A DNA stretch of 64,000 bases from Vicinamibacterales bacterium. Lineage in GTDB: Bacteria; Acidobacteriota; Vicinamibacteria; Vicinamibacterales; 2-12-FULL-66-21. The notes below the pieces were generated by a model. It saw nothing but the letters and a program-made list of their open reading frames with translations. It searched no databases and was not told the origin of the DNA. Below are positions 2,982 to 51,892 of this stretch, in pieces. Positions within the stretch are counted from its first letter, which is position 1; each line of letters begins with the position of its first letter. The stretch spans positions 20,636-84,635 of the forward strand of contig DATAFJ010000027.1 of NCBI GenBank assembly GCA_036257535.1. The letters run 5' to 3'. A program made the translations under genes and the position numbers.

Positions 2982-3056
2982 TGCCGAATGTCCAATGCCC
3001 GATGCCCAATGCCCAGACGGAGGCCCGAAGCCCAAGGCCCCAAGCCCCAAGCCCTA
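2979..3056 (-). repeat. Heptanucleotide tandem array, 11 units, filling a stop-to-start spacer
   Basis: Sense (minus) strand: TAGGGCT TGGGGCT TGGGGCC TTGGGCT TCGGGCC TCCGTCT GGGCATT GGGCATC GGGCATT GGACATT CGGCATT G. It runs from stop TAG (3056-3054) to the TTG start (2981-2979). Confidence 0.9.
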
Positions 3057-6000
3057 CGGCTCCGTCCCAGTCCTGAGCGCGCGCACGGGCTGCGGTACTT
3101 CCATCAGAAAGTTCGCCGCCGCGAGCTGCCTGTAGAGATCGCCCGCTTTCGAGATGACCCCGTTGACTTCTCCCACCGCCGTCGTGAGCGCTTCCCGGTT
3201 CTCCGTCACCAGCCGTGTCTGCGTCTCGGTCGGCAGAGAAGTGGAGCCCATGATCTGACTCTTGAGCTGACCGATCCGGCCGCGCACGTTCTGAGTGCCG
3301 CCGAATCCGCCGCCGAACCCGCCACCGCCGCCCACGCCGAGCTTCGGCTTGACCTTCTCGACTTCCTTGTCGAACGACTCGACGGCCGTCTTCATGTCGG
3401 CCGGCGCCTTCGTCGACTTCAGCCTGTCCTTCAGGTCGGTGAGCTGGCGATCGATCGTCGTCAGCGCGGCCGCCGCCTCGTTTGCGTGACGCTGGAGCTC
3501 GTGGAGGGCGAGGGCTGTCTCGAAGTGAACCTTGCGGTCGGCGTCGGTAATCTGAATCTCGGGATCGCCCGAGACGACAACGCGGGAGGTTGCCGCATCG
3601 CGCCCATCGACACTGAGTGCCACTGAATAGGTCCCGGGCAGCACCAGCGGACCGTTCAGCCCGCCTCCGAAAAACCCTCCACCCTGGCCCGGCTGCTGGC
3701 CCGCTAAAGGTGGCAGGGGCTCGACGCGCAGATCCCAGACGACGGTGTTGAGGCCGGCGGCGCCGGCGTTCCGTATCGCAGCGCCCGAGAGCTCGCGTAC
3801 GGTCCGGCCTGTCGCGTCCTTGACGCTCAGCTTCACGTCCTTGGCGGCTTCCCGGAGACGGAACGCAATCGACACGCCTTCGCGCGGGTTTTTCCCGAGG
3901 AACTTGCGATCGCCCTCGAAGTCGCGCATGCGCTCCGCCGATCCGTTGCGCTGCGCGACGGCCTGAGGCTCGAACAGGTAGACCGCCTCGGTCATGGCCT
4001 TCGCGTGCTGCTGGAACGGCGCAAGATCGTCGAGCACCCAGAATGCCCGGCCGTGGGTGGCGAGAATCAGGTCGTTGTCGCGCGGGTGGATGGCGATCTC
4101 GTACACCGGAACGGTGGGCAGGTTTGCTCTCACGCGGGACCACGTGCGGCCGCGATCCGTCGTGACGAACAGGCCGGTCTCGGTGCCGATGTAGAGCACG
4201 TCCGGGTTTTTCGTGTCCTCCGTGAGCGTGCGAACGACCTCGCCCTTCGGCAGGCCGCCGGCGAGCGACCGCCACGAGCCGCCATAGTCGCCACTCGCAA
4301 AAACGTACGTGCCGAAATCGCCGGATCGGTGACCGTCGAAGGTTGCGTGGACCGTTCCATCATCGAAGCGCGACGGAACGACCTTGGAGACGTAGGTGTT
4401 CTTCGGGACTCCAGGAATCTTGTCTGTCACGCGCGTCCAGTTCTTGCCGCCGTCACGCGAGACGGCCACCACGCCGTCATCCGAGCCCGTGTAGTAGAGG
4501 CCGGCGCGCTTCGTTGATTCCGCGAAGCTGACGAGCGTGCTGTACGCCGCGACGCCGTCGTTTCGCGCGAGCCGCGTCTCGCGTCCCCTGACGCCCATCA
4601 ACTCCAGCTCGTCGCGATCGACGGCGTTCGTGAGGTCGGGGCTGATCTCCTGCCACGAGTGGCCGCGGTCCGCCGACTTCAGCAGTTTGTTCGCCGCGAC
4701 GTAGACCGTTTTCGGATCGTGCGGTGACAACGCCATCGGCGTATCCCAGTTCCAGCGATACGCAGGCTGGCCCGCGACCGGCTCCGGACGGATCGACTTG
4801 CGCTCGTTGGTGAGGCGGTCCACCCGATTCATGCGGCCGTCCTGCGATTCCGAATACAGGATTCTGGGATCCATCGGATCGACCAGCGCCACGAAGCCGT
4901 CGCCGCCGCCGATGATGAACCATTCGTCGTTGCCGATGCCGTTGCGGTTGCGGACGGCGCTCGGACCGCACCATGTGTTGTTGTCCTGCAGCCCGCCGCA
5001 GATGGTGTATGGGGACTGCATGTCGTACGACACGTGATAGAACTGCGCCAGCGGCAGGTTCGGGAGATACGTGTACGTGCGGCTGCGATCGTAGGAGATC
5101 GCGACGCCGCCGTCGTTGCCCAGGATCAGATGATCGGAGTTTGCGGGATTGATCCACATCGCGTGATGGTCGACATGGATGCTGCGGGCTCCCTCGTTGT
5201 GGAACGTCTTGCCGCCGTCGTCCGAGACGTGCAGCTGCACGCCCAGCACGTAGATCCGGGCATCCGAGTTCGGGTCGACGCGAATCTGGCTGAAGTACAT
5301 CGGGCGCGGGTTCACGTTGCTCAATTTCTTCCAGCCCGCCCCGCCATCGTCTGAGCGGTACACTCCGCTCTCGGTCGCGTGCTCGATGCGGGCATAGACG
5401 ACGTTCGGATTCGATCGATAGACGTCGAGGCCGATCCGCCCCTTGGGTCCGTCAGGAATTCCCGCCGTCAGCTTCGTCCACGTTCGGCCCGCGTCGGTCG
5501 TCTTGTAGATCGCGCTGCCGTTGCCGCCGCCGTTGAAGCCCCACGTGGCGCGGCGGCGCTGGTACGTGGCCGCGTACAAGACCTTGTTGTTCGACGGATC
5601 CATGACGAGCTCCGTCGCTCCGGTGTCGTCGTCTACGAAAAGACTCCGCGTCCAGGTGAGCCCGCCGTCGATCGTCTTGAACACCCCACGTTCGCCGCCG
5701 GGCGCCCAGAGGCTGCCGAGCGACGCCACGTAGACGACGTCGTGGTCCTGCGGATCCACGATGACGCGGGCGATGTGCCGCGACTCCCGGAGCCCCATGT
5801 TCTTCCAGCCGCGTCCGCCGTCGGTCGACTTGTAGACGCCGTCGCCCCACGACGAGCTCTGGCGGTTGTTGTTCTCGCCGGTTCCCACCCACACGAGATT
5901 CGCGTCGGTCGGAGCGATCGCGACATCGCCAATCGATGACGTGGACTCGTTGTCGAAGACCGGCTCGAAGGTCGTTCCCTGGTTGACCGTCTTCCAGAGC

Positions 6001-11703: not shown

Positions 11704-11799
11704 ACGGCCTCCAAACCGCTCCGGCGGAGCCTCGCTAACCGGGGGAGGGGCCCCCGATCGCCAACGAGCCGCGCTTTGCTGGGTTCAAAGCGCTTTCAC

Positions 11800-11886
11800 C
11801 ATGCTGACTGCTGACTGCGGAATGCTGAACGGGGAAGCAGCATCCAGCTCCACACTCAGCAATCCACATTCAGCAGTCAGCAGGGT
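11800..11886. repeat. Palindromic heptamer array (GAATGCT/GATTGCT family)
   Basis: Period-7 parse: ACTGCTG ACTGCGG AATGCTG AACGGGG AAGCAGC ATCCAGC TCCACAC TCAGCAA TCCACAT TCAGCAG TCAGCAG. The left arm (about 11802-11833) is an imperfect reverse complement of the right arm (about 11852-11884), starting with a 13-nt exact match TGCTGACTGCTGA. Confidence 0.8.
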
Positions 11887-16459: not shown

Positions 16460-16863
16460 GTCATCTCCACCAGGATCGATCCGGGCTGCACGAGCTGCCC
16501 TTCGGCGCAGCGTACTTCGGTCACTGTTCCATCCTGCGGCGCGCGAAGCGGCAGCTCCATCTTCATCGCTTCGAGAAGGATCAGCGTTTCCCCGCGGCGA
16601 ACCGTCTTCCCGGGCGCCGTGAGAATCCGGAGCACGGTGGCCGGCATCGGCGCCGACAGGTCGGTCAGCCCGCGTGAACCCCCGCGAACCTTCTCGAACC
16701 CCTTCGAACCTTTTCGAACCTTTTCGAACCTGAAGGTACGTCCATCGATGAAAACCCACGTTGCGTGCTCATCAGCGGCAACGAACGCACGGACGCGGTT
16801 CCCGTCTCGTTCCAGCAGGAGCTCGCCTGGCGCGATATCGGTAATGGTGAACTCGGCGGACAT
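16456..16863 (-). CDS. mccA: Biotin carboxyl carrier (biotinyl domain) subunit, C-terminal part of a split MccA
   Basis: Biotinylation motif EAMKME within GETLILLEAMKMELPLRAPQDGTV. The N-terminal half continues the BT domain. ATG 16863 overlaps the stop of the biotin carboxylase ORF (TGATG). Confidence 0.8.
   Translation of the reverse strand: MSAEFTITDIAPGELLLERDGNRVRAFVAADEHATWVFIDGRTFRFEKVRKGSKGFEKVRGGSRGLTDLSAPMPATVLRILTAPGKTVRRGETLILLEAMKMELPLRAPQDGTVTEVRCAEGQLVQPGSILVEMT
16671..16730. repeat. Six 10-bp units each ending CGAACC/TGAACC, inside the BCCP linker coding region
   Basis: cgcgtgaacc cccgcgaacc ttctcgaacc ccttcgaacc ttttcgaacc ttttcgaacc. On the sense strand this encodes FEKVRKGSKG FEKVRGGSRG. 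Confidence 0.85.
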
Positions 16864-18344: not shown

Positions 18345-18397
18345 GCCAGGCCCCAAGCCCTAAGCCCTAAGCCCCAAGCCCCAAGCCCCAAGCCCTA
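18345..18397 (-). repeat. Heptamer array (CTTGGGG/CTTAGGG), 6-7 units, filling the liuC-mccA spacer
   Basis: Sense (minus) strand: TAGGG CTTGGGG CTTGGGG CTTGGGG CTTAGGG CTTAGGG CTTGGGG CCTGGC GTG. It runs from stop TAG (18397-18395) to start GTG (18344-18342). Confidence 0.92.
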
Positions 18398-19156
18398 CTT
18401 CCGTTTCTCTAAGAAGGCGCGCATTCCGCGTTGGCCTTCATCAGAGACCCGCTGGCGCGCGATCGTCTCGGCCGTGATATCCATCACGGAACTGGGGCTG
18501 CGGCCCGAGATTTTGCGGATAAGGGCCTTCGCTTCGGCGACGGCACCCGGCGCGGAGCTCGCCAGTTCGGTCAGAACCGACTCGACCGCCTGATCGAGCG
18601 CCGCGGTCCCGACGACGGTGTGGACGAGCCCGATTTCACGCGCGCGCGACGCGGGAAAGCGCGCGCCGGTCAGGAAGAGCTCGCGCGCCGCCGAGACGCC
18701 GATTTTCGCGACCACGTACGGCGAAATCACCGCAGGCAGGATCCCGAGCTTGACCTCCGTGAACCCAAACGTCACGTCCTCGGCGGCGATGGCGATATCG
18801 CAGACGGCCGCGAGGCCGGCGCCGCCGCCGAGCGCGGCGCCCTGGATCCGGCCGATTAGTGGAAACGGGACTGTGTCGAGCGCTTCGAACATTCGCGCGA
18901 GAGCGGCCGCGTCGCGCAGGTTCTCCCTGTGCGAGTAGCCGATCATGCGCGACATCCACTGGAGATCGGCGCCGGCGCAGAACACCGGACCGGCGCCGGC
19001 GAGAACCGCGGCGCGGATCGTCCTGTCGTGCGACGCGCCCGTCGCCCAGTCCGCCAGCTCGGCGATCAGCGCATCGTTGAGCGCATTACGCACGTCGGGC
19101 CGGTTGAGTGTGACGAGGGTGACCCGGTTCTCGATGCGAACATCTACTAGCGCCAT
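18395..19156 (-). CDS. liuC: Enoyl-CoA hydratase family, probable methylglutaconyl-CoA hydratase
   Basis: ATG 19156: MALVDVRIENRVTLVTLNRPDVRNALN, VFCAGADL, GGGAGLAAVCD (crotonase motifs). Its position between mccB and mccA fits this role. Confidence 0.8.
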   Translation of the reverse strand: MALVDVRIENRVTLVTLNRPDVRNALNDALIAELADWATGASHDRTIRAAVLAGAGPVFCAGADLQWMSRMIGYSHRENLRDAAALARMFEALDTVPFPLIGRIQGAALGGGAGLAAVCDIAIAAEDVTFGFTEVKLGILPAVISPYVVAKIGVSAARELFLTGARFPASRAREIGLVHTVVGTAALDQAVESVLTELASSAPGAVAEAKALIRKISGRSPSSVMDITAETIARQRVSDEGQRGMRAFLEKRK

Positions 19157-20769: not shown

Positions 20770-21005
20770 TACCAGCCGCAGCAGTCGGTCTTGAAGCCGC
20801 AGCGCGGGCAGCGCCACACGGCGTGCATCCGGAACATCGCGCCGCCGCACCGGTCGCAGCCGACTTCGCTCGCGCTCTGCGCGGGCCTCGTCGAGACCGG
20901 GGCATGGGGCTTGGGGCTCCGGGCTTGGGGCGTCGGGCTCAGAGCTTGGGGCATCGGGCGCAGGGCCTGGGGCTTGGGGCTTGGGGGCATCGGCCGTTCA
21001 GGCAT
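20769..21005 (-). CDS. Small Cys4 zinc-ribbon protein translationally coupled to mccB (start uncertain)
   Basis: The C-terminus ...[31 protein letters not shown] carries CxxC-X12-CxxC. Stop TAA overlaps the mccB ATG (TAATG). ATG 21005 lies 6 nt after a TATAAT. The N-terminal ~45 codons are read from the heptamer array, so the coding status of that part is unclear. Confidence 0.45.
20899..20996 (+). repeat. Degenerate GGGGCTT heptamer array, ~14 units
   Basis: Plus strand: GGGGCAT GGGGCTT GGGGCTC CGGGCTT GGGGCGT CGGGCTC AGAGCTT GGGGCAT CGGGCGC AGGGCCT GGGGCTT GGGGCTT GGGGGCA TCGGCCG. Confidence 0.88.
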
Positions 21006-26876: not shown

Positions 26877-27343
26877 CCTGTCAGGAGTTCGAGGATCGGA
26901 TCGACGCGCTTGCCTCTGGAGACGAGGTCCAGACCCACGAGACGCGTGCGCATCTCGAAACGTGCCATCGCTGTCAGGCGGCATTCGCGCGCGCGGTTCA
27001 AGTCGAGCAGTTCCTCGCGTCGCGCCCGGCGCCGGCGGCGCCGCCGCGCTTCACGCCCCGCGTCTCCATCGCCGTTCGCCATGCGACCTGGGAGTCCGAG
27101 CAGTCGCTCGACCGCTGGTTCAACGTCGCCGTGGCGGCATCGATTCTCCTCGCGGCCTGCGGAGTATGGCTGCTTGCAAACGTCAGCGGCATGGCTGCCG
27201 TGGGCGCGGATGCCGGCCGGTTGCTGCGGGATGGCGCCGCCCTCGCCGCCGAGCGCTTCGGAGGGAACGTCGCCGTGTATTTCGGCGCGACGCTGGTGCT
27301 GCTGTTCTCGGTGGCCGTCTGGTCGTGGGCGGAACAGAACTAG
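26873..27343 (+). CDS. Anti-sigma factor (zf-HC2-like N-terminus, membrane-spanning)
   Basis: ATG 26873 overlaps the sigma stop (ATGA). MTCQEFEDRIDA...AHLETCHRCQAAF, and TM helices WFNVAVAASILLAACGVWLL and VYFGATLVLLFSVAVWSW. Confidence 0.8.
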   Translation: MTCQEFEDRIDALASGDEVQTHETRAHLETCHRCQAAFARAVQVEQFLASRPAPAAPPRFTPRVSIAVRHATWESEQSLDRWFNVAVAASILLAACGVWLLANVSGMAAVGADAGRLLRDGAALAAERFGGNVAVYFGATLVLLFSVAVWSWAEQN

Positions 27344-27383
27344 ATCATTCAGCATTCCACACTCATCAATCCCCACTGAGTTA
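27344..27383. repeat. Copy of the ~30-nt GATTGCTGAGTGTGGAATGCTGA element between two convergent stops
   Basis: The minus strand after TAA (27383-27381) reads CTCAGTGGGGATTGATGAGTGTGGAATGCTGAATGATCTA. On the plus strand it follows the anti-sigma TAG (27341-27343). Confidence 0.8.
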
Positions 27384-32940: not shown

Positions 32941-35070
32941 ATGCCGAACCGGCTCGCCAGCGAGCGCAGCCCCTACCTCCTTCAGCACGCGCAAAACCCG
33001 GTCGACTGGTATCCATGGGGTGAAGAGGCGTTCGAGAAGGCGCGACGCGACGACAAGCCGATTTTTCTATCGGTCGGTTACTCGACGTGCCACTGGTGCC
33101 ACGTCATGGAGCACGAGTCGTTCGAGTCCGCAGACATCGCCGAACGGCTCAACCGGGACTTCGTGTCGATCAAGGTCGACCGCGAGGAGCGTCCGGATGT
33201 AGATCGCGTGTACATGACGTTCGTGCAGGCCACCACGGGCGCCGGCGGCTGGCCGATGAGCGTCTGGCTGACACCGTCGCTCAAGCCCTTCTACGGCGGC
33301 ACGTACTATCCGCCCACGTCGAGGTGGGGGCGTCCGGGGTTCAGCGATGTGCTGGATGAGCTCGCGCGCGTCTGGAAGGGCGATCGCGCGCGCGTCGATA
33401 CTGTAGCCGACGATCTGCTCGCGCGGATTCAGGAGGCGACCGCTAAGAGCGGCGTCAGAACGGCGAGCGAAGTGGCCGGCCCGGACGCGATTCCCGCAGG
33501 CGTGGAGCAGTTCAGGCGCGCTTTCGACACACGGTATGGCGGATTCGGAGACGCGCCGAAGTTCCCACGGCCGTCGGAGCTGCTGTTTCTGTTGAGGGCC
33601 GGCGCCACCGAGATGGCGCTCGAGACGTTGCGGGCGATGGCGCTCGGCGGCATGCGTGACCACGTGGGCGGCGGCTTTCATCGCTACTCGGTCGACGCCG
33701 CCTGGCGCGTACCGCACTTCGAAAAGATGCTGTACGACCAGGCGCAGCTCGTGCTCGCGTATCTCGAAGCGTCACAGGCGAGTCGCACAGCTGGAGGCGC
33801 CGAAGGAAGCGCGGGCTTCTACGCGACGGTCGCCGAAGACACGCTCGACTACGTGCTCCGTGATCTGACCGACGACGCCGGCGGCTTTTACTCCGCTGAG
33901 GATGCCGATAGCGTGCCGCCGGAGCTCAGTGCGCAGGGACCGGGCGCCCCCAAGTCCGAAGGCGCGTTCTATCTCTGGACCGATGATGAGATCGGCGCGC
34001 TGCTCGGTGACGCCGCCGACATCGTACGCAAGCGGTTCGGCATCCAGAAGGGCGGAAACGCGCCTCACGACCCGCAGGGCGAGTTCACCGGCAAGAACAT
34101 CCTCTACGTCGATCAACCGATTGAAGACATCGCCATCAGGACCGGTAAGACGGCGGATGAAGTGATGAACGTTCTCGTTCGTACGCGCCCGGTGCTCTTC
34201 AACGCACGCGAGGAGCGCCCGCGGCCGCACCTCGACGACAAGATCCTGACGGCCTGGAACGGGCTGATGATTGCCGCGATCGCCCGTGCGGCGCGGACGT
34301 TCGGCAACGATCGCTATCTCAATGCGGCGCGGACGGCAGCGCGTTTCATACGGGCTTTGCTCTGGCAGGCAGAAACGGGCGGCACGCACGGGCGGCTGCT
34401 GCGACGCTTTCGCGCCGGTGAAGCGGCCATCGAAGGCTACTGCGAGGACTACGCCTGCCTGGTCTGGGGGCTCCTCGAGCTCTTTCAGGCGGATGGCGAT
34501 CCCGACTGGCTCGAGTGGGCGATTGCCGTCCAGAACGCACAGGACGCGCTGTTCTGGGACGACGCGGATGCCGGCTGGTTTACAACGTCGGGCCGCGACC
34601 CGTCGGTCCTGCTTCGGCTCAAGGAGGAGCACGACGGCGCCGAGCCGTCGCCCGGATCGATCTCGACGCTGAATCTCATCGTACTCTCGCACCTCACCGG
34701 CCGCGGCGAGCTCGCCGATCGCGCCGGGCGAACGCTGGCGCGCTATGGGCGGCGGTTCGGCGAGGCGGCGCGCGCGCTGCCGTTCATGCTCGCCGCGCTT
34801 GCCACGTGGCACGCCGGCTTCGAGCAGATCGTGATCGTCGGACAGCCGGATGCGCCTGACACGAAGGCGATGCATGAGGCTGTTGCACATCAGTACCGTC
34901 CCTATGCCGTCGTCATTCCCGTGGAGCCCGGCAGCCGCCAGGAGTCGCTCGCCCGGTTGATACCGGCGATCGGCGCGATGACGCTCCGCGACGGCCGCGC
35001 CACAGTGTACGTGTGCCGCAACTTCACGTGTGACGAGCCTGTTACTGATCCCGCTCGTCTCAGGCGTTAG
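32941..35070 (+). CDS. Thioredoxin-domain protein of the YyaL/DUF255 (SSP411-like) family
   Basis: [52 protein letters not shown], then a long alpha/alpha-barrel-like C-terminal region. 709 aa. Confidence 0.9.
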
Positions 35071-35093
35071 GCATTCGGCATTAGGCATTACAG
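35067..35093 (+). repeat. GGCATTN heptamer array filling a stop-to-start spacer
   Basis: TTAGGCA TTCGGCA TTAGGCA TTACAG then ATG. The stop TAG 35068-35070 is inside unit 1, and the next ATG is at 35094. Confidence 0.85.
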
Positions 35094-38317: not shown

Positions 38318-38401
38318 GCCGGGGTGGCGGAACTGGCAGACGCACAGGACTTAAAATCCTGGGGCCGACAGGCCGTGTGGGTTCGATCCCCACCCCCGGC
38401 A
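38318..38401 (+). tRNA. tRNA-Leu (anticodon UAA)
   Basis: Manual cloverleaf. Acceptor GCCGGGG/CCCCGGC with discriminator A. D-stem GCG/CGC. Anticodon stem CAGGA/TCCTG with loop CTTAAAA (anticodon TAA). Long variable arm GGCC..GGCC. T-arm GTGGG TTCGATC CCCAC. No encoded CCA. Confidence 0.93.
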
Positions 38402-43184: not shown

Positions 43185-46130
43185 ATGCGCGCAGCGGTCG
43201 GAGCTCTCGTTTCGCTGCTCGTCGTCGTGTGTCCTGCCGACGCCCAGTACTTCGGCCGGAACAAGGTCGAGTACGACCACTTCGACTTCCGCGTCGCACG
43301 CACCACGCACTTCGACATCTACTTCGCTGAAAAGGACGCCGCCGCCGCGGCCGACGCAGCCGTCCTCGCGGAGCGTTGGCACGATCGCCTCGTTGGGGCG
43401 TTCGGCCACCGCCTGACGCGGCGTCAACCGCTGGTCCTCTACGGCAGTCATCCCGAGTTCGCGCAGACGAACATCGTCGGCGGGTTCGTCGGCGAGGGCA
43501 CGGGCGGTGTCACCGAAGGTCTGCGCCGCCGGATCGTCATGCCGTTCGGGTACAGCCTCGCGGAAACGGATCACGTGCTCGGACATGAGATCGTTCACGC
43601 GTTCCAGTACGACATGGCGTCGACCTACGGCTCGTCCATGTTCGTGCCGCTCTGGTTCGCGGAAGGCATGGCCGAGTATCTGTCGGTCGGCCCTACGGCG
43701 CCGCAGACGACGTTGCTGATGCGCGACGCGGTGGCCTCGGGCAGGCTGCCGTCGATCGAGTCGCTCGATCATGGACGAATCTCGCCGTACCGAAGCGGCC
43801 ACGCGTTCTGGACGTGGATTGCTGAGCGGTTTGGCGGGGCAGTGATCGCGGATGTGCTGCGGCAGAAGGGACGGGCCAGCGCGCTCCGGCGGCTTGAGAA
43901 CTCGACCGGACTGAAGCGCGAGGCCCTCGACCGCGAGTGGCACGAATGGTTGAAGGAAGAGTTCCCCGCAGAGAGCGCGCACGACGTCGCACCGGGCGGC
44001 GTTCACGAGACATTCCAACCGGTCGTCACGCGCCGCAATGGTGGACGTGTGAACGTCGCGCCGGCGCTGAGCCCGAACGGCCGCCGCCTCGTGTTTCTCT
44101 CCGAGCGCGACAGATTGTCAGTCGACCTGTTTCTCGCCGACGCCGCGACCGGCAGGATTCTCCGAAAACTGCTGACGACGGCGGCGCGACCGGAGATCGA
44201 GAGCCTGCAGTCGCTGCGATCCGCTGGAGCGTGGTCGGCAGACGGACGCCGGTTCGCCTTTGCCGTCATCAGGAATGGCCGCCCCGCGCTCACGATCTTT
44301 GACGTGGGCGATGACGACCGGTCCAGGGTGGCCCGGCGCATCGACCTGGCGTCGCTCGGCGAGATCGCCGGGCCGACCTGGTCGCCCGACAGCGCCTCGA
44401 TTGCGTTCACCGGGCTTGCGGACGGCGTCACCGACTTGTACATCTACGAGCTCGGCGCGGATCGCCTGCGCCGTCTGACAACCGACGCTCATGCCGATCT
44501 GCATCCGTCGTGGTCGCCCGACGGGGCGCGGCTCGCGTTTGCCACCGATCGCTTCACGAGCGATCGCGCGACCCTGAGCGCCGGCCGGCTCGAGCTGGCG
44601 ATACTGGACATCGCGGCCGGGACTCTGAGCCGCGTGCCGGGTGACGGCGCGTCGAATCGGTACTCACCGAACTGGATGCCGGATGGCCGGACGATCGTGT
44701 TTGCGACCGACAGGAACGCGGGTCAGATCGGTCGCCTCGATCTCGCATCCAATGAGATACGGATCGTCGGAGAGCTTCCAGGCTCGGTCTCTGGACTGAC
44801 GCTGGAGAGTCCGTCGGTTGCCGTCGCCCGCGACGCCGGAGCGATTGCCGTGAGCGTCTATCGTCGCGGCGCGTTCGAGATCCACGTCGCCGGCGAATGC
44901 ACGTCCTCGACGTCAGAGCCACTGCCGACCGACGAGCCCTCGCAGTCGCCGGCACCCAATGCACCCAATGCACCCAATGCACTGGAAGCATCAGCCTACC
45001 GTCCTCGCCTGCAACTGGACGGCATCGTGCAGCCGTATCTTGCGACCGGCGGGAGCTCGTTCGGCAGCTTCGTACGGGGAGGTGCCTCGCTTTCGTTCGG
45101 CGACCTGCTCGGTGGCGAGCGCCTCGGTATCGCGGTGCAGGCGGGAACGCGCCGTTCCGACCTCGCGCTGCAGCTTCAATATCTGAATCGCGACTCGCGC
45201 TGGAACTGGGGCGTCGTCACCGAAGTCGTGCCGTATGCGCGCGGACGCTCGAGGGCGCTGGACGTCGAAGACGGGTCAGTGGTCGTGCGCGAGTCCGCGC
45301 GTGAGCTGCAGTTTCACACCCGGCTGGCTGGATTGCTCTCGTACCCGTTCAGCCGCAGCCGGCGGGTCGAGTTCAGCGCGGGGATTCGGCACATCCTCTA
45401 CGAGGAGCAACTCCGGCGGCGTGAGTACTCGGCGGCGACGGGACGGCTCGTGGGCGAGCTCAACGAGAGCAGCCGCGGCGCCGAACCGGCGGGGTTCTTC
45501 GAAGGGTCCGTCGCGTTGGTGTCGGACCGCGCGATGTACGGCCCCGTCGGTCCGATAGCGGGCGAGCGGTGGCGAGTCGAAGCTTCACCGGCCGCGGGAG
45601 AGCTTCAGTTCACGGGCGTTCTCGCCGACTACCGGCGGTACCTGATGCCCGTCAAGCCCTACACAATCGCCGCGCGGGTGATGCATTCCGCGCGGTACGG
45701 CCGCGACGCCGACGACCCGCGGCTCGTGCCGCTCTTCGCCGGCTACCGTCACCTGATTCGCGGCTACGACGCGGGCGCCTTCGGCGGCTGCGATCGGCTT
45801 GGCGACTGCGATCGCTTCGACGCGCTCTTCGGCAGCCGTCTGATGGTGGGGAACGTCGAGCTGCGCGTTCCCATCGCCGGCGCGATCGCGCGCGAGCTGA
45901 GATACGGTCCCATCCCCGCGGAAGCGTTCGCGTTTTTCGACGCCGGCATAGCCTGGACGAGCGAGGACATCCCGGCGTTTGCCGGCGGCACTCGCCGGCT
46001 CATGCGCAGCGCCGGTGCGGGCGTCCGCGTCAACGCTTTTGGGATGATCGTGGAAGTCGGCGCGGCGCGTCCGTTCGATCGCGCCCGCAACGGCTGGAAC
46101 GTCGTCTTTAATCTCCGCCCCAGCTTCTGA
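43185..46130 (+). CDS. Fusion protein: HExxH peptidase-like N-domain + TolB-type (PD40) beta-propeller + C-terminal Omp85/D15-like beta-barrel
   Basis: Signal ...LLVVVCPADAQ. VLGHEIVHAFQYDM. Five PD40-like blades (SPNGRRLVFLSERD, WSADGRRFAF, WSPDSASIAFTG, WSPDGARLAFATDR, WMPDGRTIVFATDR). C-terminus FFDAGIAW...GAGVRVNAFGMIVEVGAARPFD...NVVFNLRPSF ends in an aromatic residue, typical of outer-membrane barrels. Confidence 0.8.
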   Translation: MRAAVGALVSLLVVVCPADAQYFGRNKVEYDHFDFRVARTTHFDIYFAEKDAAAAADAAVLAERWHDRLVGAFGHRLTRRQPLVLYGSHPEFAQTNIVGGFVGEGTGGVTEGLRRRIVMPFGYSLAETDHVLGHEIVHAFQYDMASTYGSSMFVPLWFAEGMAEYLSVGPTAPQTTLLMRDAVASGRLPSIESLDHGRISPYRSGHAFWTWIAERFGGAVIADVLRQKGRASALRRLENSTGLKREALDREWHEWLKEEFPAESAHDVAPGGVHETFQPVVTRRNGGRVNVAPALSPNGRRLVFLSERDRLSVDLFLADAATGRILRKLLTTAARPEIESLQSLRSAGAWSADGRRFAFAVIRNGRPALTIFDVGDDDRSRVARRIDLASLGEIAGPTWSPDSASIAFTGLADGVTDLYIYELGADRLRRLTTDAHADLHPSWSPDGARLAFATDRFTSDRATLSAGRLELAILDIAAGTLSRVPGDGASNRYSPNWMPDGRTIVFATDRNAGQIGRLDLASNEIRIVGELPGSVSGLTLESPSVAVARDAGAIAVSVYRRGAFEIHVAGECTSSTSEPLPTDEPSQSPAPNAPNAPNALEASAYRPRLQLDGIVQPYLATGGSSFGSFVRGGASLSFGDLLGGERLGIAVQAGTRRSDLALQLQYLNRDSRWNWGVVTEVVPYARGRSRALDVEDGSVVVRESARELQFHTRLAGLLSYPFSRSRRVEFSAGIRHILYEEQLRRREYSAATGRLVGELNESSRGAEPAGFFEGSVALVSDRAMYGPVGPIAGERWRVEASPAAGELQFTGVLADYRRYLMPVKPYTIAARVMHSARYGRDADDPRLVPLFAGYRHLIRGYDAGAFGGCDRLGDCDRFDALFGSRLMVGNVELRVPIAGAIARELRYGPIPAEAFAFFDAGIAWTSEDIPAFAGGTRRLMRSAGAGVRVNAFGMIVEVGAARPFDRARNGWNVVFNLRPSF
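44952..44982 (+). repeat. In-frame 9-mer tandem (GCACCCAAT x3.4) encoding (APN)3 in a linker
   Basis: gcacccaat gcacccaat gcacccaat gcac lies within the fusion-protein CDS. It shares the CCAATGC core with the heptamers at 2979-3013. Confidence 0.85.
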
Positions 46131-47217: not shown

Positions 47218-48141
47218 GTGACGGGTGGCCTAGTCCTCCTGCTGATCCTGGCGATGTTCGTACTCATCGTCATAGCCAAGACAGCAATCGTGGTTCCACA
47301 ACAGAGTGCATACGTCGTCGAGCGGCTCGGCCGGTATTCGGGCACCCTCGGCGCCGGCTTTCACATCCTTCTGCCGTTCGTGGACGTCATCCGCTACCGC
47401 CATTCGCTCAAGGAGCAGGCGATCGACATCCCGGCGGAGGTCTGCATCACGCGCGACAACGTGCAGGTCGGCGTGGACGGCATCCTGTACCTGAAGGTCC
47501 TCAATCCCGAACGCGCGTCCTACGGCATCTCCGACTATGTGTTCGCGATCAGCCAGCTCGCGCAGACCACGCTGAGAAGCGAGATCGGAAAGATCGATCT
47601 CGACCGGACGTTCGAGGAGAGGAGCAACATCAACGCCCAGCTCGTCGCGGAGCTGGACAAGGCGTCAGAGGCCTGGGGCGTGAAGGTTCTGCGCTACGAG
47701 ATCAAGAACATCACGCCGCCGCACGACGTGCTGGCGGCGATGGAAAAGCAGATGCGCGCCGAGCGCGAGAAGCGCGCCGTCATCCTCACGTCCGAAGGCA
47801 CGCGCGACGCCGCGATCAACACCGCCGAAGGCGACAAGCAGATGGTCATCAAGGCGTCCGAGGCGCGCAAGCAGCAGCAGATTAACGAAGCCCAGGGTCA
47901 GGCTGAGGCGATTCTCGCGGTTGCGTCCGCAACCGCCGACGGGCTCCGCAAGGTCGCGGACGCGCTCCGACAGCCGGGCGGGACCGAGGCCATGCAGCTG
48001 CGCGTCGCCGAGGAGTATCTCCAGCAGTTCGGCCAGCTCGCCAAGGAAACGAACACGCTGATCCTGCCGGCCAACGTCTCCGACGTCGCGTCCATGGTCG
48101 CGCTCGCGACGCAGGTCGTGAAGGGAACGAAGACGGGATAG
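47218..48141 (+). CDS. SPFH/band-7 (stomatin/prohibitin-like) protein
   Basis: N-terminal TM, then VVPQQSAYVVERLGRYSGTLGAGFHILLPFVD..., ITRDNVQV, and a C-terminal coiled coil. GTG 47218. Confidence 0.9.
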   Translation: MTGGLVLLLILAMFVLIVIAKTAIVVPQQSAYVVERLGRYSGTLGAGFHILLPFVDVIRYRHSLKEQAIDIPAEVCITRDNVQVGVDGILYLKVLNPERASYGISDYVFAISQLAQTTLRSEIGKIDLDRTFEERSNINAQLVAELDKASEAWGVKVLRYEIKNITPPHDVLAAMEKQMRAEREKRAVILTSEGTRDAAINTAEGDKQMVIKASEARKQQQINEAQGQAEAILAVASATADGLRKVADALRQPGGTEAMQLRVAEEYLQQFGQLAKETNTLILPANVSDVASMVALATQVVKGTKTG

Positions 48142-48180
48142 GTCAGTGAGGAATGCTGATTGCTGAATGTTGAATGATCG
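48142..48180 (+). repeat. GAATGCT/GATTGCT heptamer element directly after the SPFH stop (left arm of the IVS-gene flank)
   Basis: After TAG 48139-48141: GTCAGTG AG GAATGCT GATTGCT GAATGTT GAATGAT CG. Confidence 0.85.
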
Positions 48181-48321
48181 CGTGGTGCCGGAGCAATCAA
48201 GGTGGTTGCAGATACTGCTATTTCTACCCGGGCTAGTCGTTGAAATCTTTGGCACTCCGAAGGAACAACCGAGCGGTTTCCCCCACAAATCGCGCGGCAT
48301 GCCCGCTGCAACGCCCCTGGC

Positions 48322-48717
48322 ATGTCAATCTCGGAAATCCTGACGAAGCGCACTTCCGAGTTCGCTCTGGCAATCATCCGCTTCTGCGCCGCGCTGCCGC
48401 CAACCTGGGAGGCGAGGCGCATCAGCGGCCAACCGTTCGACGCCGGTACCTCAGTCGGGGCGAACTATCGGGCCACGTGCAGAGCACGTTCGAAGCGGGA
48501 ATTCACTTCAAAAATAGGCCTCGTGATTGAGGAGGCCGACGAATCCGAATACTGGCTCATGCTGCTCAAGCGCGCGGGGATCGCGAAAGGTGTCGAGCTG
48601 GATCGCCTCTTCGACGAAGCGGGTCAGTTGGTCGCCGTTTTCACACGCTCGCAGAGGACGGCAATCAGCAAGCTCGAGAAGGAAACTCTGGCTCGAAAAC
48701 GAAAGTCACAATGCTGA
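48322..48717 (+). CDS. Four-helix-bundle protein of the 23S rRNA intervening-sequence / Avd-like family
   Basis: TSEFALAIIRFCAALPPTWEARRISGQPFDAGTSVGANYRATCRARSKREFTSKIGLVIEEADESEYWLMLL matches the family pattern (..G.Q..RS..SI.AN..EG......EF...L.IA.GS..E..YWL.L). Visibly lower GC than its neighbours. Confidence 0.9.
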   Translation: MSISEILTKRTSEFALAIIRFCAALPPTWEARRISGQPFDAGTSVGANYRATCRARSKREFTSKIGLVIEEADESEYWLMLLKRAGIAKGVELDRLFDEAGQLVAVFTRSQRTAISKLEKETLARKRKSQC

Positions 48718-48801
48718 TTGCGGGAAGCTGAATGCTGATTGTTAGTGACCGGCGTTGCTTGACCACTCAGCATTCCACACTCAGCAATCTACACTGACTC
48801 A
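48715..48801. repeat. Heptamer elements downstream of the IVS-like gene (direct partial copy plus inverted right arm)
   Basis: 48727-48745 gctGAATGCTGATTGttag repeats 12 nt of the left arm. 48766-48789 CTCAGCATTCCACACTCAGCAATC is the reverse complement of the left arm 48158-48180 (18 of the first 21 positions match by hand). The minus strand after the ypfJ-like TGA (48801-48799) reads GTCAGTGTAGATTGCTGAGTGTGGAATGCTGAG. Confidence 0.85.
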
Positions 48802-49665
48802 GGTCCCGAACGTATTACAGGAATCCGGGTTTCCGCTCTGGAGGCCCCGCCGGAACCATTCCACGCGCTGCGCCGACGACCCGTGCGTGAACGCGTCCGG
48901 GACGACGCGGCCGCCTGACATCTGTTGAAGCCGATCGTCGCCGATGGCGGCGGCGGCACGGAGCCCTTCCTCGACATCGCCCTCTTCAAGCATGACGCGG
49001 CGTCCGACCTCGCCTCCGGATCTGGACGCGAAGCTGCCCCAAACGCCCGCAAAGCAGTCCGCCTGCAGCTCCATGCGGACCGACAGCTCGTTCTGCTGCG
49101 CCGGCCGGCGCTGCTGCAGCTGGCGCACCTGGCTTTCAATCCCGAGGACGTTCTGGACGTGGTGGCCGACCTCGTGCGCGATGACGTATGCCTGCGCGAA
49201 GTCGCCGGGCGCGCCGAACCGCCGATGGAGCTCGTCGAAGAAGCTGAGATCGAGGTAAACCTGTCGATCGCCAGGGCAATAGAACGGCCCGGTGGCCGCT
49301 TGCGCGAACCCGCACGCCGACTCGACTGCGTCGCGGAAGAGTCTGACCTTCGTCCGCTGGTACCGTCCCGGCATGATCTGGGTCCAGGTGTTCTGGAGGT
49401 CGCCCATGACGGCGTCCACCATGTCGACAAGCTCTTCCTCCTGGGGCGTCGATGTCGCGGGTCCGGCATCGCCCGTCGTCCCGGTGGATGGGCCGGGCAC
49501 ACCGCCGCCCCCGAGAAGCGACAGAAAGTCGGCGCCCGTGAACCAGCTGAGCGCGAGGAGAAGCAGCAGCCCGCCGATACCGATCGGCATTCCGCGGCCT
49601 CCGAAGCCCGCGCGCTGTCCTCTCAGGTCATCGATGTTCTCGCGATTGCCTCGGGTCCACCGCAT
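48799..49665 (-). CDS. ypfJ: YpfJ-family neutral zinc metallopeptidase
   Basis: N-terminal TM. GPFYCPGDRQVYLDLSFF, and YVIAHEVGHHVQNVLG (HExxH). Confidence 0.9.
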   Translation of the reverse strand: MRWTRGNRENIDDLRGQRAGFGGRGMPIGIGGLLLLLALSWFTGADFLSLLGGGGVPGPSTGTTGDAGPATSTPQEEELVDMVDAVMGDLQNTWTQIMPGRYQRTKVRLFRDAVESACGFAQAATGPFYCPGDRQVYLDLSFFDELHRRFGAPGDFAQAYVIAHEVGHHVQNVLGIESQVRQLQQRRPAQQNELSVRMELQADCFAGVWGSFASRSGGEVGRRVMLEEGDVEEGLRAAAAIGDDRLQQMSGGRVVPDAFTHGSSAQRVEWFRRGLQSGNPDSCNTFGT

Positions 49666-51320: not shown

Positions 51321-51851
51321 ATGCGCGCCCGGAGGCCCGTAGCGGCGGGATTTACGCTCGTCGAACTCCTCGTTGTCGTGGCAATGATCGGCGTCGTGTC
51401 GGCCATTGCGGTTCCGGCACTGCTCCGTGCCCGGATGTCCGGCAACGAGGCTTCGGCGATCGGATCGATTCGTGCGGTCAACGCGGCGGAGACGGCGTAT
51501 GCGAACTCGGCGGGGCGGGGTGGCTTCGCGGTTCTGCTCTCTACGCTCGTCACGCCGTGCGGTGCCGGGAGCGCCGGCTTCCTGTCGAGGGACCTCGCCT
51601 CCGATCCGTCAAGCAAAAGCGGTTACCGAATCACGCTCGCGGTCGGCGCGGGTGCGAACGTCGGACCGCTCGATTGCAATGGTACGGTGACGCGCACCTC
51701 CTATTACGCGACAGCGGTTCCGCTGTCGGTCGGCACGACGGGAAGGCGTGCGTTCGCGAGCAACGCCATCAACGCAATCTGGCAGAACTCCACCGGATTG
51801 CCACCGGCGGAGCCGTTCACAATCACAGCGACGACGCAGCCACTTCAATAG
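51321..51851 (+). CDS. Prepilin-type N-terminal cleavage/methylation domain protein (type IV pilin / T2SS pseudopilin-like)
   Basis: MRARRPVAAG|FTLVELLVVVAMIGVVSAIAVPALL is a class III signal with the G/FTLVE motif. ATG 51321 (tracked ATG 51303 adds 6 aa). Confidence 0.85.
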   Translation: MRARRPVAAGFTLVELLVVVAMIGVVSAIAVPALLRARMSGNEASAIGSIRAVNAAETAYANSAGRGGFAVLLSTLVTPCGAGSAGFLSRDLASDPSSKSGYRITLAVGAGANVGPLDCNGTVTRTSYYATAVPLSVGTTGRRAFASNAINAIWQNSTGLPPAEPFTITATTQPLQ

Positions 51852-51892
51852 CCCCAGGCCCCAAGCCCCAAGCCCCAGGCCCCAGGCCCAGT
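51852..51892 (-). repeat. Heptamer array (CCTGGGG/CTTGGGG) occupying the whole gap between two convergent stops
   Basis: Plus strand: TAG CCCCAGG CCCCAAG CCCCAAG CCCCAGG CCCCAGG CCCAGT TCA. The minus strand after TGA reads ACTGGG CCTGGGG CCTGGGG CTTGGGG CTTGGGG CCTGGGG. Confidence 0.92.

What the first reader, a model, noticed from the sequence alone, without database searches (positions are those of the whole stretch)
48142..48806. Lower-GC four-helix-bundle (23S rRNA IVS / Avd-like) gene embedded between inverted heptamer arms, an IVS-like cassette outside rRNA
The 657-bp gap between the convergent SPFH and ypfJ-like genes holds a 131-aa protein of the 23S rRNA intervening-sequence family, the fold shared with the DGR accessory protein Avd. 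Its GC content is visibly lower than that of its neighbours. The left flank 48158-48180 (GATTGCTGAATGTTGAATGATCG) and right flank 48766-48789 (reverse complement GATTGCTGAGTGTGGAATGCTGAG) match at 18 of the first 21 positions, so they are inverted repeats about 600 nt apart. In addition, GAATGCTGATTG occurs as a direct repeat on both sides of the gene (48151-48162 and 48731-48742). In Leptospira- and Coxiella-type rRNA IVSs the gene is likewise enclosed by a long stem that RNase III cuts out. Here the same gene type sits in an analogous stem-bounded context between protein-coding genes. This suggests either a mobile or excisable RNA cassette, or insertion into a pre-existing palindromic repeat site.
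Basis: partly seen in the sequence, partly recalled or inferred. Interest (0 to 1): 0.72.

Follow-up and report, generated by a model that had tools for sequence, protein, structure and literature searches.

The report
Mobile four-helix-bundle cassette with heptamer arms
A 657-base insertion wedged exactly between two housekeeping genes carries a small Avd-like four-helix-bundle gene bracketed by inverted runs of 7-base repeats, and the same polar layout recurs around this gene family in many phyla, so it looks like the free-living form of the gene-bearing inserts known from 23S rRNA.

Summary
Window 48142-48798 (657 nt) fills the space between the stop codons of an SPFH/Band7 gene and a convergent YpfJ peptidase gene. 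It holds a 131-aa PF05635/TIGR02436 protein with a confident four-helix-bundle model. The protein is under purifying selection (dN/dS 0.06-0.10). The insert has lower GC than its neighbours. Its arms are tandem heptamers: (GNNGAWT)n on the left and (AWTCNNC)n on the right.

Four close relatives have the same gene pair with only 0-38 nt between the genes and no such gene. Three relatives have the cassette. A 79%-identical copy sits between unrelated genes in another genome and keeps the same arms.

In 80 loci from many phyla, heptamer arrays are six-fold enriched next to this gene. They are strictly polar: 26:2 upstream, 34:2 downstream. The upstream neighbour is co-directional in 71 of 77 loci. 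Cassettes sit inside nuoE|F, nuoI|J and pyrR|pyrB.

I conclude it is a discrete, probably mobile cassette, the non-rRNA counterpart of ORF-bearing 23S IVSs. RNase III excision, binding of the repeats by the protein and the mode of movement are inferred, not shown. I found no published description of this layout.

The parts
48142..48180 (+). Left arm: tandem heptamers of GNNGAWT type (GTCAGTG AGGAATG CTGATTG CTGAATG TTGAATG ATCG). It starts right after the Band7 stop codon (48139-48141).
   Evidence: (I1, I5). The same arm type follows the upstream stop codon in L170, L003, L001 and L171.
48181..48321 (+). Leader of 141 nt between the left arm and the ATG. It holds the conserved box CGTTGAAATCTTTG (48238-48251). 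No sigma-70-type promoter is detected.
   Evidence: Alignment A2 of five cassettes from two insertion sites. Promoter and terminator scan negative. Rfam has no match even at E<=1.
48322..48717 (+). Four-helix-bundle protein gene (131 aa) of family PF05635/TIGR02436, with an Avd-like fold.
   Evidence: PDB 2RLD by sequence, E 1.8e-10. AF2 model pLDDT 97.2 with four helices. Foldseek TM (by target) 0.82-0.88 to 2RLD, about 0.8 to 2GSC, 0.68-0.75 to Avd 4DWL/8UB7. dN/dS 0.06-0.10.
48710..48748 (+). Second forward (GNNGAWT-type) array overlapping the stop codon. It is a direct repeat of the left arm and the 5' half of a local 3' hairpin.
   Evidence: (D1, D2, I4). The same layout, ORF followed by forward array, loop and reverse array, is seen in two Ignavibacteriaceae cassettes, L018 and L042.
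48749..48760 (+). Loop of the local 3' hairpin.
   Evidence: fold of 48700-48805, -33.4 kcal/mol, z -2.3.
48761..48798 (+). Right arm: AWTCNNC-type heptamers (GACCACTCAGCATTCCACACTCAGCAATCTACACTGAC). It ends at the base before the YpfJ stop codon (48799-48801) and can pair either with the left arm or with 48712-48734.
   Evidence: I1, I4; D3.
11798..11886 (-). Gene-less hairpin of the same heptamer family, between two minus-strand genes. Read on the minus strand it is (GNNGAWT)n-loop-(AWTCNNC)n, the same polarity as the cassette.
   Evidence: -50.6 and -58.3 kcal/mol, z -7.6 and -8.1; I7.
27343..27380 (.). Solo array of the same family (85% identical to the right arm). It fills the whole 38-nt gap between two convergent ORFs.
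   Evidence: (D3).

Best explanation
**What it is.** Window 48142-48798 is a discrete inserted cassette, very probably mobile or once mobile. Its parts are a left array of GNNGAWT heptamers, a leader, an Avd-like four-helix-bundle (4HB) gene, and a right array of AWTCNNC heptamers. This copy has an extra forward array that makes a 3' hairpin. It is the protein-gene-context counterpart of the ORF-bearing intervening sequences of 23S rRNA.

**Shown here.**
- It is an insertion relative to the closest relatives.
- The arms belong to the element and move with the gene.
- The polar layout is conserved across phyla.
- The protein is under purifying selection.

**Inferred (my estimates of probability).**
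- The cassette has no promoter of its own and is transcribed by read-through from the upstream NfeD-Band7 genes (about 0.6).
- In that transcript the two arms pair into an imperfect stem of about 38-45 bp that encloses the ORF. RNase III cuts it, as it cuts the homologous rRNA IVS stems, releasing a separate 4HB RNA and separating the host RNA on either side (about 0.4).
- The 4HB protein, a likely pentamer like its crystallised relatives, binds the repeat arrays of its own cassette as RNA or DNA. It would serve processing, stability or movement (about 0.3).
- Gene-less hairpins and solo arrays of the same family are ORF-less derivatives, as MITEs are to IS elements.

**Open.** How the cassette moves is not known. 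Recombination at the arrays and an RNA-mediated route are both possible.
For: **Insertion at this site.**
- The Band7|YpfJ junction is empty in L165 (YpfJ 93% identical; the two stop codons overlap), L166 (18-nt gap) and L167/L168 (26-nt gap).
- L169 has a 38-nt gap holding only a solo array.
- The junction is filled in the window, in L002-L004 and in L170.
- By Band7 dS, the window and L003 (both filled) are the closest pair.

**Arms travel with the gene.**
- L001/L005 (79% aa identity) and L171 (70%) sit between an FAD oxidoreductase gene and a LON-substrate-binding gene. They carry the same arm family.

**Generality across 80 loci from many phyla.**
- Period-7 arrays lie within 300 nt of the gene in 43 of 80 loci. 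Other periods are almost absent.
- Gaps next to the gene carry an array in 35% of cases against 7.9% for other gaps, Fisher p 1.8e-12.
- Polarity: GNNGAWT versus AWTCNNC is 26:2 upstream and 2:34 downstream.
- Flank complementarity within a locus exceeds that between loci, p 2.5e-9 and 7e-28.
- Paralogous cassettes in one genome have different units, each matched between its own two arms.

**Dependence on host transcription.**
- The upstream neighbour is co-directional in 71 of 77 loci, with a median upstream gap of 79 nt. About 15 loci have the 4-nt ATGA overlap with the next gene.
- Cassettes lie inside nuoI|J, nuoE|F and pyrR|pyrB.
- No promoter or terminator is detected in 48000-48900.

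**Stem.** The long-range stem is kept in the MFE of the window, L170 and L171.

**Protein.** dN/dS is 0.06-0.10. The fold matches 2RLD, 2GSC and Avd, each deposited with five chains.

**Precedent.** The Coxiella 23S IVS holds an S23p ORF preceded by 2-3 tandem heptamers whose number varies among strains. It is closed by a 28-bp stem that RNase III cuts at the first repeat (PMC4990558).
Against: - No RNA data exist, so transcript ends and cleavage are untested.
- The arms are only 76% complementary. The variable position of each heptamer does not co-vary between the arms. Pairing is no better on the sense strand than on the antisense strand (p 0.11). Selection may therefore act on arrays as polar protein sites rather than on an RNA helix.
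- The window clade has a conserved 141-nt leader that could hide a non-canonical promoter downstream of the left arm.
- Heptamer arrays of other units are common in this genome and in the other 4HB-bearing genomes, far from any 4HB gene. Of 49 far arrays only 2 lie near a second copy.
- No recombinase or reverse transcriptase is nearby, and no target-site duplication is visible.
- I found no two identical cassettes in one genome that would prove recent movement.
- The window protein has Pro at a position where Leu is nearly invariant (L38).
Confidence: 0.6

Rival explanations
1. DNA-level transposon ends. On this reading the inverted arrays of direct heptamers are multiple binding sites for a recombinase or transposase encoded elsewhere, as in Tn7, Mu or CACTA-type ends or REP/RAYT. 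The 4HB gene would be a passenger or accessory, and the RNA stem would have no function.
For: - The arrays are polar and inverted, with perfect 7-nt termini (GTCAGTG...CACTGAC in the window, ATCAATG...CATTGAT in L170).
- The junction is filled in some relatives and empty in others.
- Gene-less hairpins and solo arrays exist, like non-autonomous copies.
- There is no sense/antisense asymmetry in pairing, and the variable heptamer position does not co-vary.
- Array copy number differs between near-identical metagenome variants L003 and L004.
Against: - No transposase, integrase or RT is among the 30 other ORFs scanned in the window.
- No target-site duplication is visible.
- The upstream gene is co-directional in 92% of loci, and ATGA coupling to the downstream gene is common. 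A purely DNA-level element would not need either, although selection after insertion could produce them.
- Paralogous cassettes in one genome keep different units. One shared trans-acting enzyme would not predict that.
Confidence: 0.2
2. Incidental association. Heptamer arrays would be slippage-born simple repeats that are common in the intergenic gaps of this genome, and a small orphan gene merely sits between two of them.
For: - The window holds several other heptamer families in tiny gaps without any 4HB gene (2979-3054, 18346-18395, 20899-20986, 35062-35090, 51851-51889).
- Far arrays in other loci have many different units.
- Heptanucleotides are reported as the commonest long simple repeats in bacteria (cited in PMC4679880).
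- Copy number of near and far arrays is alike.
Against: - Enrichment next to the gene is six-fold after normalising for intergenic space.
- Polarity is 26:2 and 34:2.
- Units are matched within a cassette and differ between paralogues of one genome.
- Empty sites lack any repeat, and the arms move with the gene to another locus.
Confidence: 0.08
3. Resident autoregulated gene, not mobile. The arrays would be operator or translational-control sites bound by the 4HB protein, or control sites for the neighbouring genes, like the TAACTGA repeats proposed to regulate translation in Beggiatoaceae.
For: - Arrays abut start and stop codons, and about 15 loci show ATGA coupling to the next gene.
- The protein is under strong purifying selection.
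- The insertion in nuoI|J is shared by four Pyrinomonadaceae genomes (L026, L052, L061, L081), which suggests long vertical retention.
- MacGregor 2015 proposes translational roles for heptamer arrays.
Against: - The junction is filled in some close relatives and empty in others.
- The same cassette occurs at unrelated loci.
- Insertions lie in unrelated, otherwise contiguous operons.
- GC and GC3 are lower than in the host genes.
- Regulation and mobility are not exclusive.
Confidence: 0.1
4. Orphan Avd of a diversity-generating retroelement. The gene would be a remnant or a remote accessory factor of a DGR.
For: The fold and the Pfam family are shared with Avd.
Against: - No TR/VR-like repeat of 30 nt or more is in the 64 kb.
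- No reverse transcriptase is among the 30 other ORFs scanned.
- The 80 homologous loci lie in housekeeping contexts.
- PADLOC and PHROGs give no hit.
- Similarity to the non-DGR members 2RLD and 2GSC is closer than to Avd.
Confidence: 0.02

Closest known systems
ORF-bearing intervening sequences of 23S rRNA (Leptospira, Coxiella burnetii S23p IVS)
   Same: - The ORF belongs to the same protein family (PF05635).
- The size is similar (about 430-750 nt).
- Terminal inverted repeats enclose the ORF in a long stem.
- Coxiella has tandem heptamers directly upstream of the ORF, with variable copy number.
- GC is lower than in the host.
- Distribution is sporadic, and the authors infer horizontal transfer (PMC4990558).
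   Different: - This cassette lies between protein-coding genes, not in helix 9, 25 or 45 of 23S rRNA. No rRNA is in the window.
- The heptamer unit differs: GCTGAWT here, GACAGAT in Coxiella.
- Here the protein is clearly under purifying selection, whereas the Coxiella authors argue that S23p is decaying.
- RNase III cleavage is shown for the IVS and untested here.
Avd, the accessory protein of diversity-generating retroelements (PDB 4DWL, 8UB7)
   Same: Four-helix-bundle fold (TM 0.68-0.75). The solved relatives are homopentamers. Avd binds structured RNA next to its own gene.
   Different: There is no reverse transcriptase and no template/variable repeat pair. Sequence similarity is detectable only at family or fold level. 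Heptamer arms are not a described DGR feature.
REP/BIME elements with RAYT transposases, and MITEs derived from IS elements
   Same: Short palindromic repeat units are scattered in intergenic gaps. A gene-bearing master copy is flanked by the same repeats. Gene-less hairpins and solo arrays look like derivatives.
   Different: The encoded protein has no recognisable catalytic domain: no HUH, DDE, tyrosine or serine recombinase. The repeats are tandem 7-mers rather than a single palindrome. The link between the protein and the repeats is inferred only.
Intergenic heptanucleotide repeat arrays (cyanobacterial STRR, TAACTGA arrays of Beggiatoaceae, long simple sequence repeats)
   Same: Tandem 7-nt units of about 4-6 copies lie in short intergenic gaps, often touching start codons. 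Copy number varies between strains (PMC4679880).
   Different: Those arrays have not been tied to a protein family or to an inverted, polar arrangement around a gene. Here they are the two ends of a gene cassette.

Membership tests
PF05635 / TIGR02436 four-helix-bundle protein family (23S_rRNA_IVP, 'S23 ribosomal protein') | Sequence scores above the curated thresholds of the family models | tested here: met
   PF05635 41.5 bits (cut-off 33.8). TIGR02436 65.6 bits (cut-off 24).
PF05635 / TIGR02436 four-helix-bundle protein family (23S_rRNA_IVP, 'S23 ribosomal protein') | Four-helix-bundle fold like BT_0352 (2RLD) and Xcc0516 (2GSC) | tested here: met
   AF2 model pLDDT 97.2 with helices 3-23, 29-53, 58-84 and 91-130. 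Foldseek TM 0.82-0.88 to 2RLD and about 0.8 to 2GSC, rmsd 1.8-1.9.
PF05635 / TIGR02436 four-helix-bundle protein family (23S_rRNA_IVP, 'S23 ribosomal protein') | Conserved motif GxxRxxxSxxxNxxE (Lin 2006; Zhang and Ye 2013, PMC3936711) | tested here: inconclusive
   The clade has Q37..(R/D)AGTSVGANYR. Ser and Asn are kept. The final Glu is Arg in the whole clade, and the window has Asp at the Arg position and Pro at the nearly invariant Leu38.
PF05635 / TIGR02436 four-helix-bundle protein family (23S_rRNA_IVP, 'S23 ribosomal protein') | Homopentameric assembly | not tested
   Only a monomer was modelled. 2RLD, 2GSC and 4DWL each list five chains.
23S rRNA intervening sequence (ORF-bearing type) | Inserted in a 23S rRNA helix (9, 25 or 45) | tested here: not met
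   It lies between Band7 and YpfJ. The Rfam gathering scan of the window finds only one tRNA.
23S rRNA intervening sequence (ORF-bearing type) | Terminal inverted repeats that close the element into a long stem | tested here: met
   38-nt arms, 76% complementary. The stem is kept in the MFE and centroid structures.
23S rRNA intervening sequence (ORF-bearing type) | Encodes a PF05635 protein | tested here: met
23S rRNA intervening sequence (ORF-bearing type) | Excised from the precursor by RNase III | not testable with these tools
   This needs RNA end mapping. Shown for Coxiella in PMC4990558.
Diversity-generating retroelement | Reverse transcriptase gene next to the Avd gene | tested here: not met
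   No RVT domain in the 30 other ORFs scanned in the window or in the immediate neighbours.
Diversity-generating retroelement | Template repeat / variable repeat pair | tested here: not met
   The only direct repeats of 30 nt or more in the 64 kb are heptamer arrays and chance GC-rich matches.
IS/MITE or REP-RAYT type mobile repeats | Recognisable transposase in the element or nearby | tested here: not met
   The only ORF is the 4HB protein. PADLOC and PHROGs give no hit. No transposase is in the window.
IS/MITE or REP-RAYT type mobile repeats | Filled and empty sites among relatives, and copies at unrelated loci | tested here: met
   Empty: L165-L168. Filled: window, L002-L004, L170. Other locus: L001, L171.
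IS/MITE or REP-RAYT type mobile repeats | Target-site duplication | tested here: not met
   No duplicated bases flank 48142 and 48798 (GATAG| ... |TCAGG). The C-termini of Band7 differ among relatives, so the boundary cannot be fixed to the base.
Intergenic heptanucleotide repeat arrays (STRR / LSSR) | Tandem 7-nt units, three or more copies, in non-coding gaps | tested here: met
   TRF period 7 at 48151-48176 and period 14 at 48764-48795. Period 7 is uniquely over-represented in the window.

The most novel reading that the evidence does not exclude
PF05635 four-helix-bundle genes bracketed by polar inverted heptamer arrays would be a widespread, so far undescribed class of recombinase-less mobile cassettes. 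They would ride on host transcripts. ORF-bearing 23S rRNA IVSs would be the rRNA-lodged special case. The Avd-like pentamer would recognise the repeat unit of its own cassette, roughly one unit per subunit given the typical 4-5 copies. The cassettes would also seed the abundant solo heptamer arrays and hairpins seen in Acidobacteriota, Planctomycetota, Bacteroidota, Chloroflexota and others, as RAYTs do for REPs.
Probability: 0.3. Interest if true: 0.88.

Novelty: new variant of a known kind. Interest (0 to 1): 0.74.

Why it matters
- **Origin of rRNA IVSs.** Where the ORF-bearing intervening sequences of 23S rRNA came from, and whether they move, has been open since the early 1990s. What the very large PF05635 family does outside DGRs is also unknown. 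This locus and its relatives give a concrete model with filled and empty sites, defined ends and a conserved polarity that can be tested with cloned DNA.
- **Annotation puzzles.** The model would explain why these genes turn up in unrelated operons, including nuo and pyr here and cas loci in PMC3936711. It would explain why many end in odd repeat-encoded tails.
- **Heptamer arrays.** It may account for part of the unexplained excess of heptanucleotide arrays in many bacterial genomes.
- **Mobility without a recombinase.** If the protein really reads its own 7-nt repeats, this would be a new protein-repeat recognition system and a mobile element lacking any known recombinase.

Tried and rejected
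- **Metagenome scan with Band7 for empty sites.** This was useless. Band7 is too conserved, and none of the 80 hits had YpfJ downstream. A YpfJ search plus contig look-ups solved it.
- **G-U wobble test for the functional strand.** Sense and antisense pairing did not differ (p 0.11).
- **Array copy number as a test of one heptamer per pentamer subunit.** Near arrays have a median of 4.6 copies and far arrays 4.4, so the test does not discriminate.
- **Rfam.** No match at gathering thresholds or at E<=1.
- **PADLOC and PHROGs.** No match.
- **Promoter and terminator scan of 48000-48900.** Nothing found.
- **DGR linkage.** No TR/VR pair and no RT in the window.
- **A second 4HB gene in the window.** None found.
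- **Literature.** No paper in the library links PF05635 genes to flanking heptamer arrays. Ralph and McClelland 1993 (PMC47033) is not held.
- **Pre-existing palindrome target.** Rejected for this site because three empty sites lack any repeat.
- **Independent insertions in the window and L003.** Considered because 4HB dS (1.42) far exceeds Band7 dS (0.42). Not adopted, because the two are the closest pair by Band7 and the lower codon bias of the cassette can explain faster silent change. Exchange of cassettes between loci remains possible.
Full report
**1. Observation**

The 657 nt between the stop codon of an SPFH/Band7 gene (47218-48141, +) and that of a convergent YpfJ-type zinc peptidase gene (48799-49665, -) hold one ORF, 48322-48717 (+, 131 aa). 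It scores above the curated thresholds of PF05635 (41.5 against 33.8 bits) and TIGR02436 (65.6 against 24).

An AlphaFold model built on 40 homologues has pLDDT 97.2 and four long helices. Its best structural matches are:
- BT_0352 (2RLD), TM about 0.82-0.88;
- Xcc0516 (2GSC), TM about 0.8;
- the DGR protein Avd (4DWL, 8UB7), TM 0.68-0.75.

GC is 0.59 for the ORF and 0.569 for the insert, against 0.64-0.675 for the neighbours. GC3 of the ORF (0.71) is the lowest of 61 called ORFs.

The arms are real:
- 48142-48179 pairs with 48761-48798 (38 nt, 76% complementary).
- The arms reach exactly from stop codon to stop codon, with perfect termini GTCAGTG...CACTGAC.
- A 19-nt arm probe has no expected chance match in the window.
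A third copy lies over the stop codon.

The arms are tandem heptamers. GNNGAWT units lie on the left, a second GNNGAWT array lies at 48710-48748, and AWTCNNC units lie on the right. The right arm can therefore pair either with the distant left arm or locally with 48712-48734. The folded transcript keeps the long-range stem.

**2. It is an insertion**

The organism is a Vicinamibacterales (Acidobacteriota) MAG. I searched with YpfJ and looked up the contigs of its closest homologues.

| Locus | YpfJ identity | Band7-YpfJ junction |
|---|---|---|
| L165 | 93% | stop codons overlap, no insert |
| L166 | 77% | 18-nt gap, no repeat |
| L167/L168 | 75% | 26-nt gap, no repeat |
| L169 | 72% | 38-nt gap with a solo GNNGAWT array, no gene |

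Three relatives have the cassette at the same junction: P0003 in L002-L004 (79% identity) and P0004 in L170 (81%). By Band7 synonymous divergence, the window and L003 are the closest pair (dS 0.42) and the empty L165 is next (0.52-0.57). One insertion in their common ancestor is therefore enough.

**3. The arms belong to the element**

P0005 (79% identity; L001/L005, a 3.66-Mb contig of another Acidobacteriota MAG) and P0007 (70%; L171) lie in a different context, between an FAD oxidoreductase gene and a LON-substrate-binding gene. Both still have the same arms. Both share leader boxes such as CGTTGAAATTCTTG with the window copy. L003 and L004, near-identical metagenome variants, differ by one heptamer copy.

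Within the window, the same arm family occurs twice without a gene:
- A strong hairpin lies at 11798-11886 (z about -8). Read on the transcribed minus strand, it has the cassette's polarity with a short loop in place of the ORF.
- A solo array fills a 38-nt convergent gap at 27343-27380.

**4. The layout is general**

A scan of one genome per species returned 583 relatives. I analysed the best 80 loci, which come from Acidobacteriota, Planctomycetota, Verrucomicrobiota, Chloroflexota, Ignavibacteria, Bacteroidota, Patescibacteria and others.

- Strict period-7 arrays lie within 300 nt of the gene in 43 of 80 loci (0.94 per kb against 0.081 per kb farther away). Periods 5-12 other than 7 are essentially absent.
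- After normalising for intergenic space, 35% of the gaps next to the gene carry an array against 7.9% of other gaps (p 1.8e-12).
- The arrays are polar. GNNGAWT arrays occur upstream in 26 loci and AWTCNNC arrays in 2. Downstream the counts are 2 and 34.
- Flanks of one locus are more complementary to each other than to flanks of other loci (p 2.5e-9 by duplex energy, p 7e-28 by shared 7-mers). 68 of 77 loci share at least three 7-mers between the upstream flank and the reverse-complemented downstream flank.
- Paralogous cassettes in one genome use different units, each matched between its own two arms. L031a has GTGATTT/AATCACA and L031b has TCAACGT/GTTGAAC. L043b even has an 8-nt unit.
- Two Ignavibacteriaceae cassettes repeat the window's variant with a 3' hairpin.
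- Five viral-contig hits show the same arms.

**5. Context**

The upstream neighbour is co-directional in 71 of 77 loci, with a median gap of 79 nt. The 4HB stop overlaps the next gene's start (ATGA) in about 15 loci. Cassettes sit inside conserved operons:
- NuoI-like | 4HB | NuoJ in four Pyrinomonadaceae MAGs;
- NuoE | 4HB | NuoF;
- PyrR | 4HB | PyrB.

Many ORFs read through the 3' array, which gives tails such as QSAIRN. In the window no sigma-70 promoter or intrinsic terminator is detected around the cassette. None of the 30 other ORFs scanned is a reverse transcriptase, transposase, integrase or phage protein, and there is no TR/VR-like repeat.

**6. The protein is functional**

dN/dS is 0.06-0.10 among the window, L001 and L003 copies. 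One oddity is Pro at the nearly invariant Leu38.

**7. Mechanism**

*Shown:* a discrete insertion with defined ends; arms that are part of the element; a conserved polar architecture; dependence on the orientation of the upstream gene; a protein under selection.

*Inferred:* read-through transcription; pairing of the arms into an imperfect stem; RNase III cleavage; binding of the arrays by the Avd-like, probably pentameric protein; gene-less hairpins as derivatives.

The RNase III inference rests on the homologous rRNA IVSs. In Coxiella an S23p ORF is preceded by 2-3 strain-variable heptamers, is closed by a 28-bp stem and is cut by RNase III at the first repeat (PMC4990558).

*Against a strict RNA-helix model:* the variable heptamer position does not co-vary between the arms, and sense pairing is no better than antisense pairing. 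A DNA-level reading, with arrays acting as polar binding sites like multi-site transposon ends, therefore remains a serious rival. How the cassette moves is unknown.

**8. Background of heptamers**

This genome, and the other 4HB-bearing genomes, carry many heptamer arrays of other units in tiny gaps:
- 0.078-0.081 per kb, against 0.024 per kb in 329 kb of control loci;
- only 2 of 49 far arrays lie near a second 4HB gene.

This weakens any claim that all arrays derive from cassettes. It does not explain the polarity, the matching of units or the co-transfer of the arms.

**9. Comparison and novelty**

The protein is a member of PF05635/TIGR02436. The element works like an ORF-bearing 23S IVS but fails the defining feature of lying in rRNA. 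It is not a DGR. It resembles REP/RAYT or IS/MITE systems in its population structure but has no recognisable recombinase. Its arms are a special, polar case of the known intergenic heptanucleotide arrays.

In the paper library I found no description that links this gene family to flanking heptamer arrays. The 18 family members reported inside cas loci (PMC3936711) fit the picture of cassettes landing in operons.

I rate it a new variant of a known kind, with interest 0.74.

Noticed in passing
window 18346-18414 and 20888-20986: Inverted arrays of a different heptamer (GCCCCAA / TTGGGGC, 7 and about 12 copies; 65-nt arms, 77% complementary) bracket 2.47 kb. That stretch holds two minus-strand genes of a methylcrotonyl-CoA-carboxylase-type cluster (carboxyltransferase and enoyl-CoA hydratase). 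The biotin carboxylase-like ORF follows the left array. Heptamer arms can therefore also enclose host genes.
   Followed up: partly
window 2979-3054, 35062-35090, 51851-51889: Further heptamer arrays (CAATGCC then GCCCCAA; AGGCATT; GCCCCAG) fill tiny gaps from a stop codon to the next gene boundary. One fills a 23-nt gap between a DUF255/thioredoxin-like gene and an enoyl-CoA hydratase gene. One fills a 41-nt convergent gap. Period 7 is the only over-represented repeat period in the window.
   Followed up: partly
L169 3859-3896 (ERZ25039565 contig_48678): At the same Band7|YpfJ junction a relative has only a solo array, ATTGCTGAATGTGGAATGCTGAAGGTGGATTG, and no 4HB gene. It is either a scar of a lost cassette or an independently seeded array.
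   Followed up: partly
L043 7316-7663 and flanks: One 4HB cassette has arms built from an 8-nt unit (GTTGGTAA / TTACCAAC) instead of 7 nt. A paralogue 2 kb away uses a 7-nt unit. The period is therefore not absolutely fixed.
   Followed up: no
L026, L052, L061, L081 (Pyrinomonadaceae MAGs), about 5000-5400 in each: The cassette lies between nuoI and nuoJ in four genomes. The 4HB stop overlaps the nuoJ start (ATGA) and the 3' array lies inside the 4HB reading frame. This looks like translational coupling that preserves expression of the downstream operon genes.
   Followed up: partly
window 48322-48717, residue 38: The window protein has Pro where Leu is nearly invariant in 40 homologues (QPFDAG against QLFDAG), in the second helix. 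The AF2 model is still confident, and dN/dS is low.
   Followed up: no
window 48322-48717 compared with 47218-48141: Between the window and L003, synonymous divergence of the 4HB gene (dS 1.42) is more than three times that of the adjacent Band7 gene (dS 0.42). Either silent change in the cassette is faster, or cassettes have been exchanged between loci.
   Followed up: partly
window 16676-16731 and 44952-44982: A 10/20-nt tandem repeat (CGAACCTTTT, 4.7 copies) lies at the 5' end of the HMGL-like gene region. A perfect 9-nt repeat (GCACCCAAT x3.4) encodes PNAPNAPNA inside the 981-aa PD40-repeat protein.
   Followed up: no
L172-L176 (IMG/VR contigs): Five predicted viral contigs carry a 4HB gene of this clade. 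I read three of them: two (L172, L174) show the arrays on both sides and L176 only an upstream one. This is a possible vehicle for horizontal spread, or the contigs may be mis-called host DNA.
   Followed up: partly
window 38318-38401: A single tRNA gene is the only Rfam match in the window. No rRNA is present.
   Followed up: no
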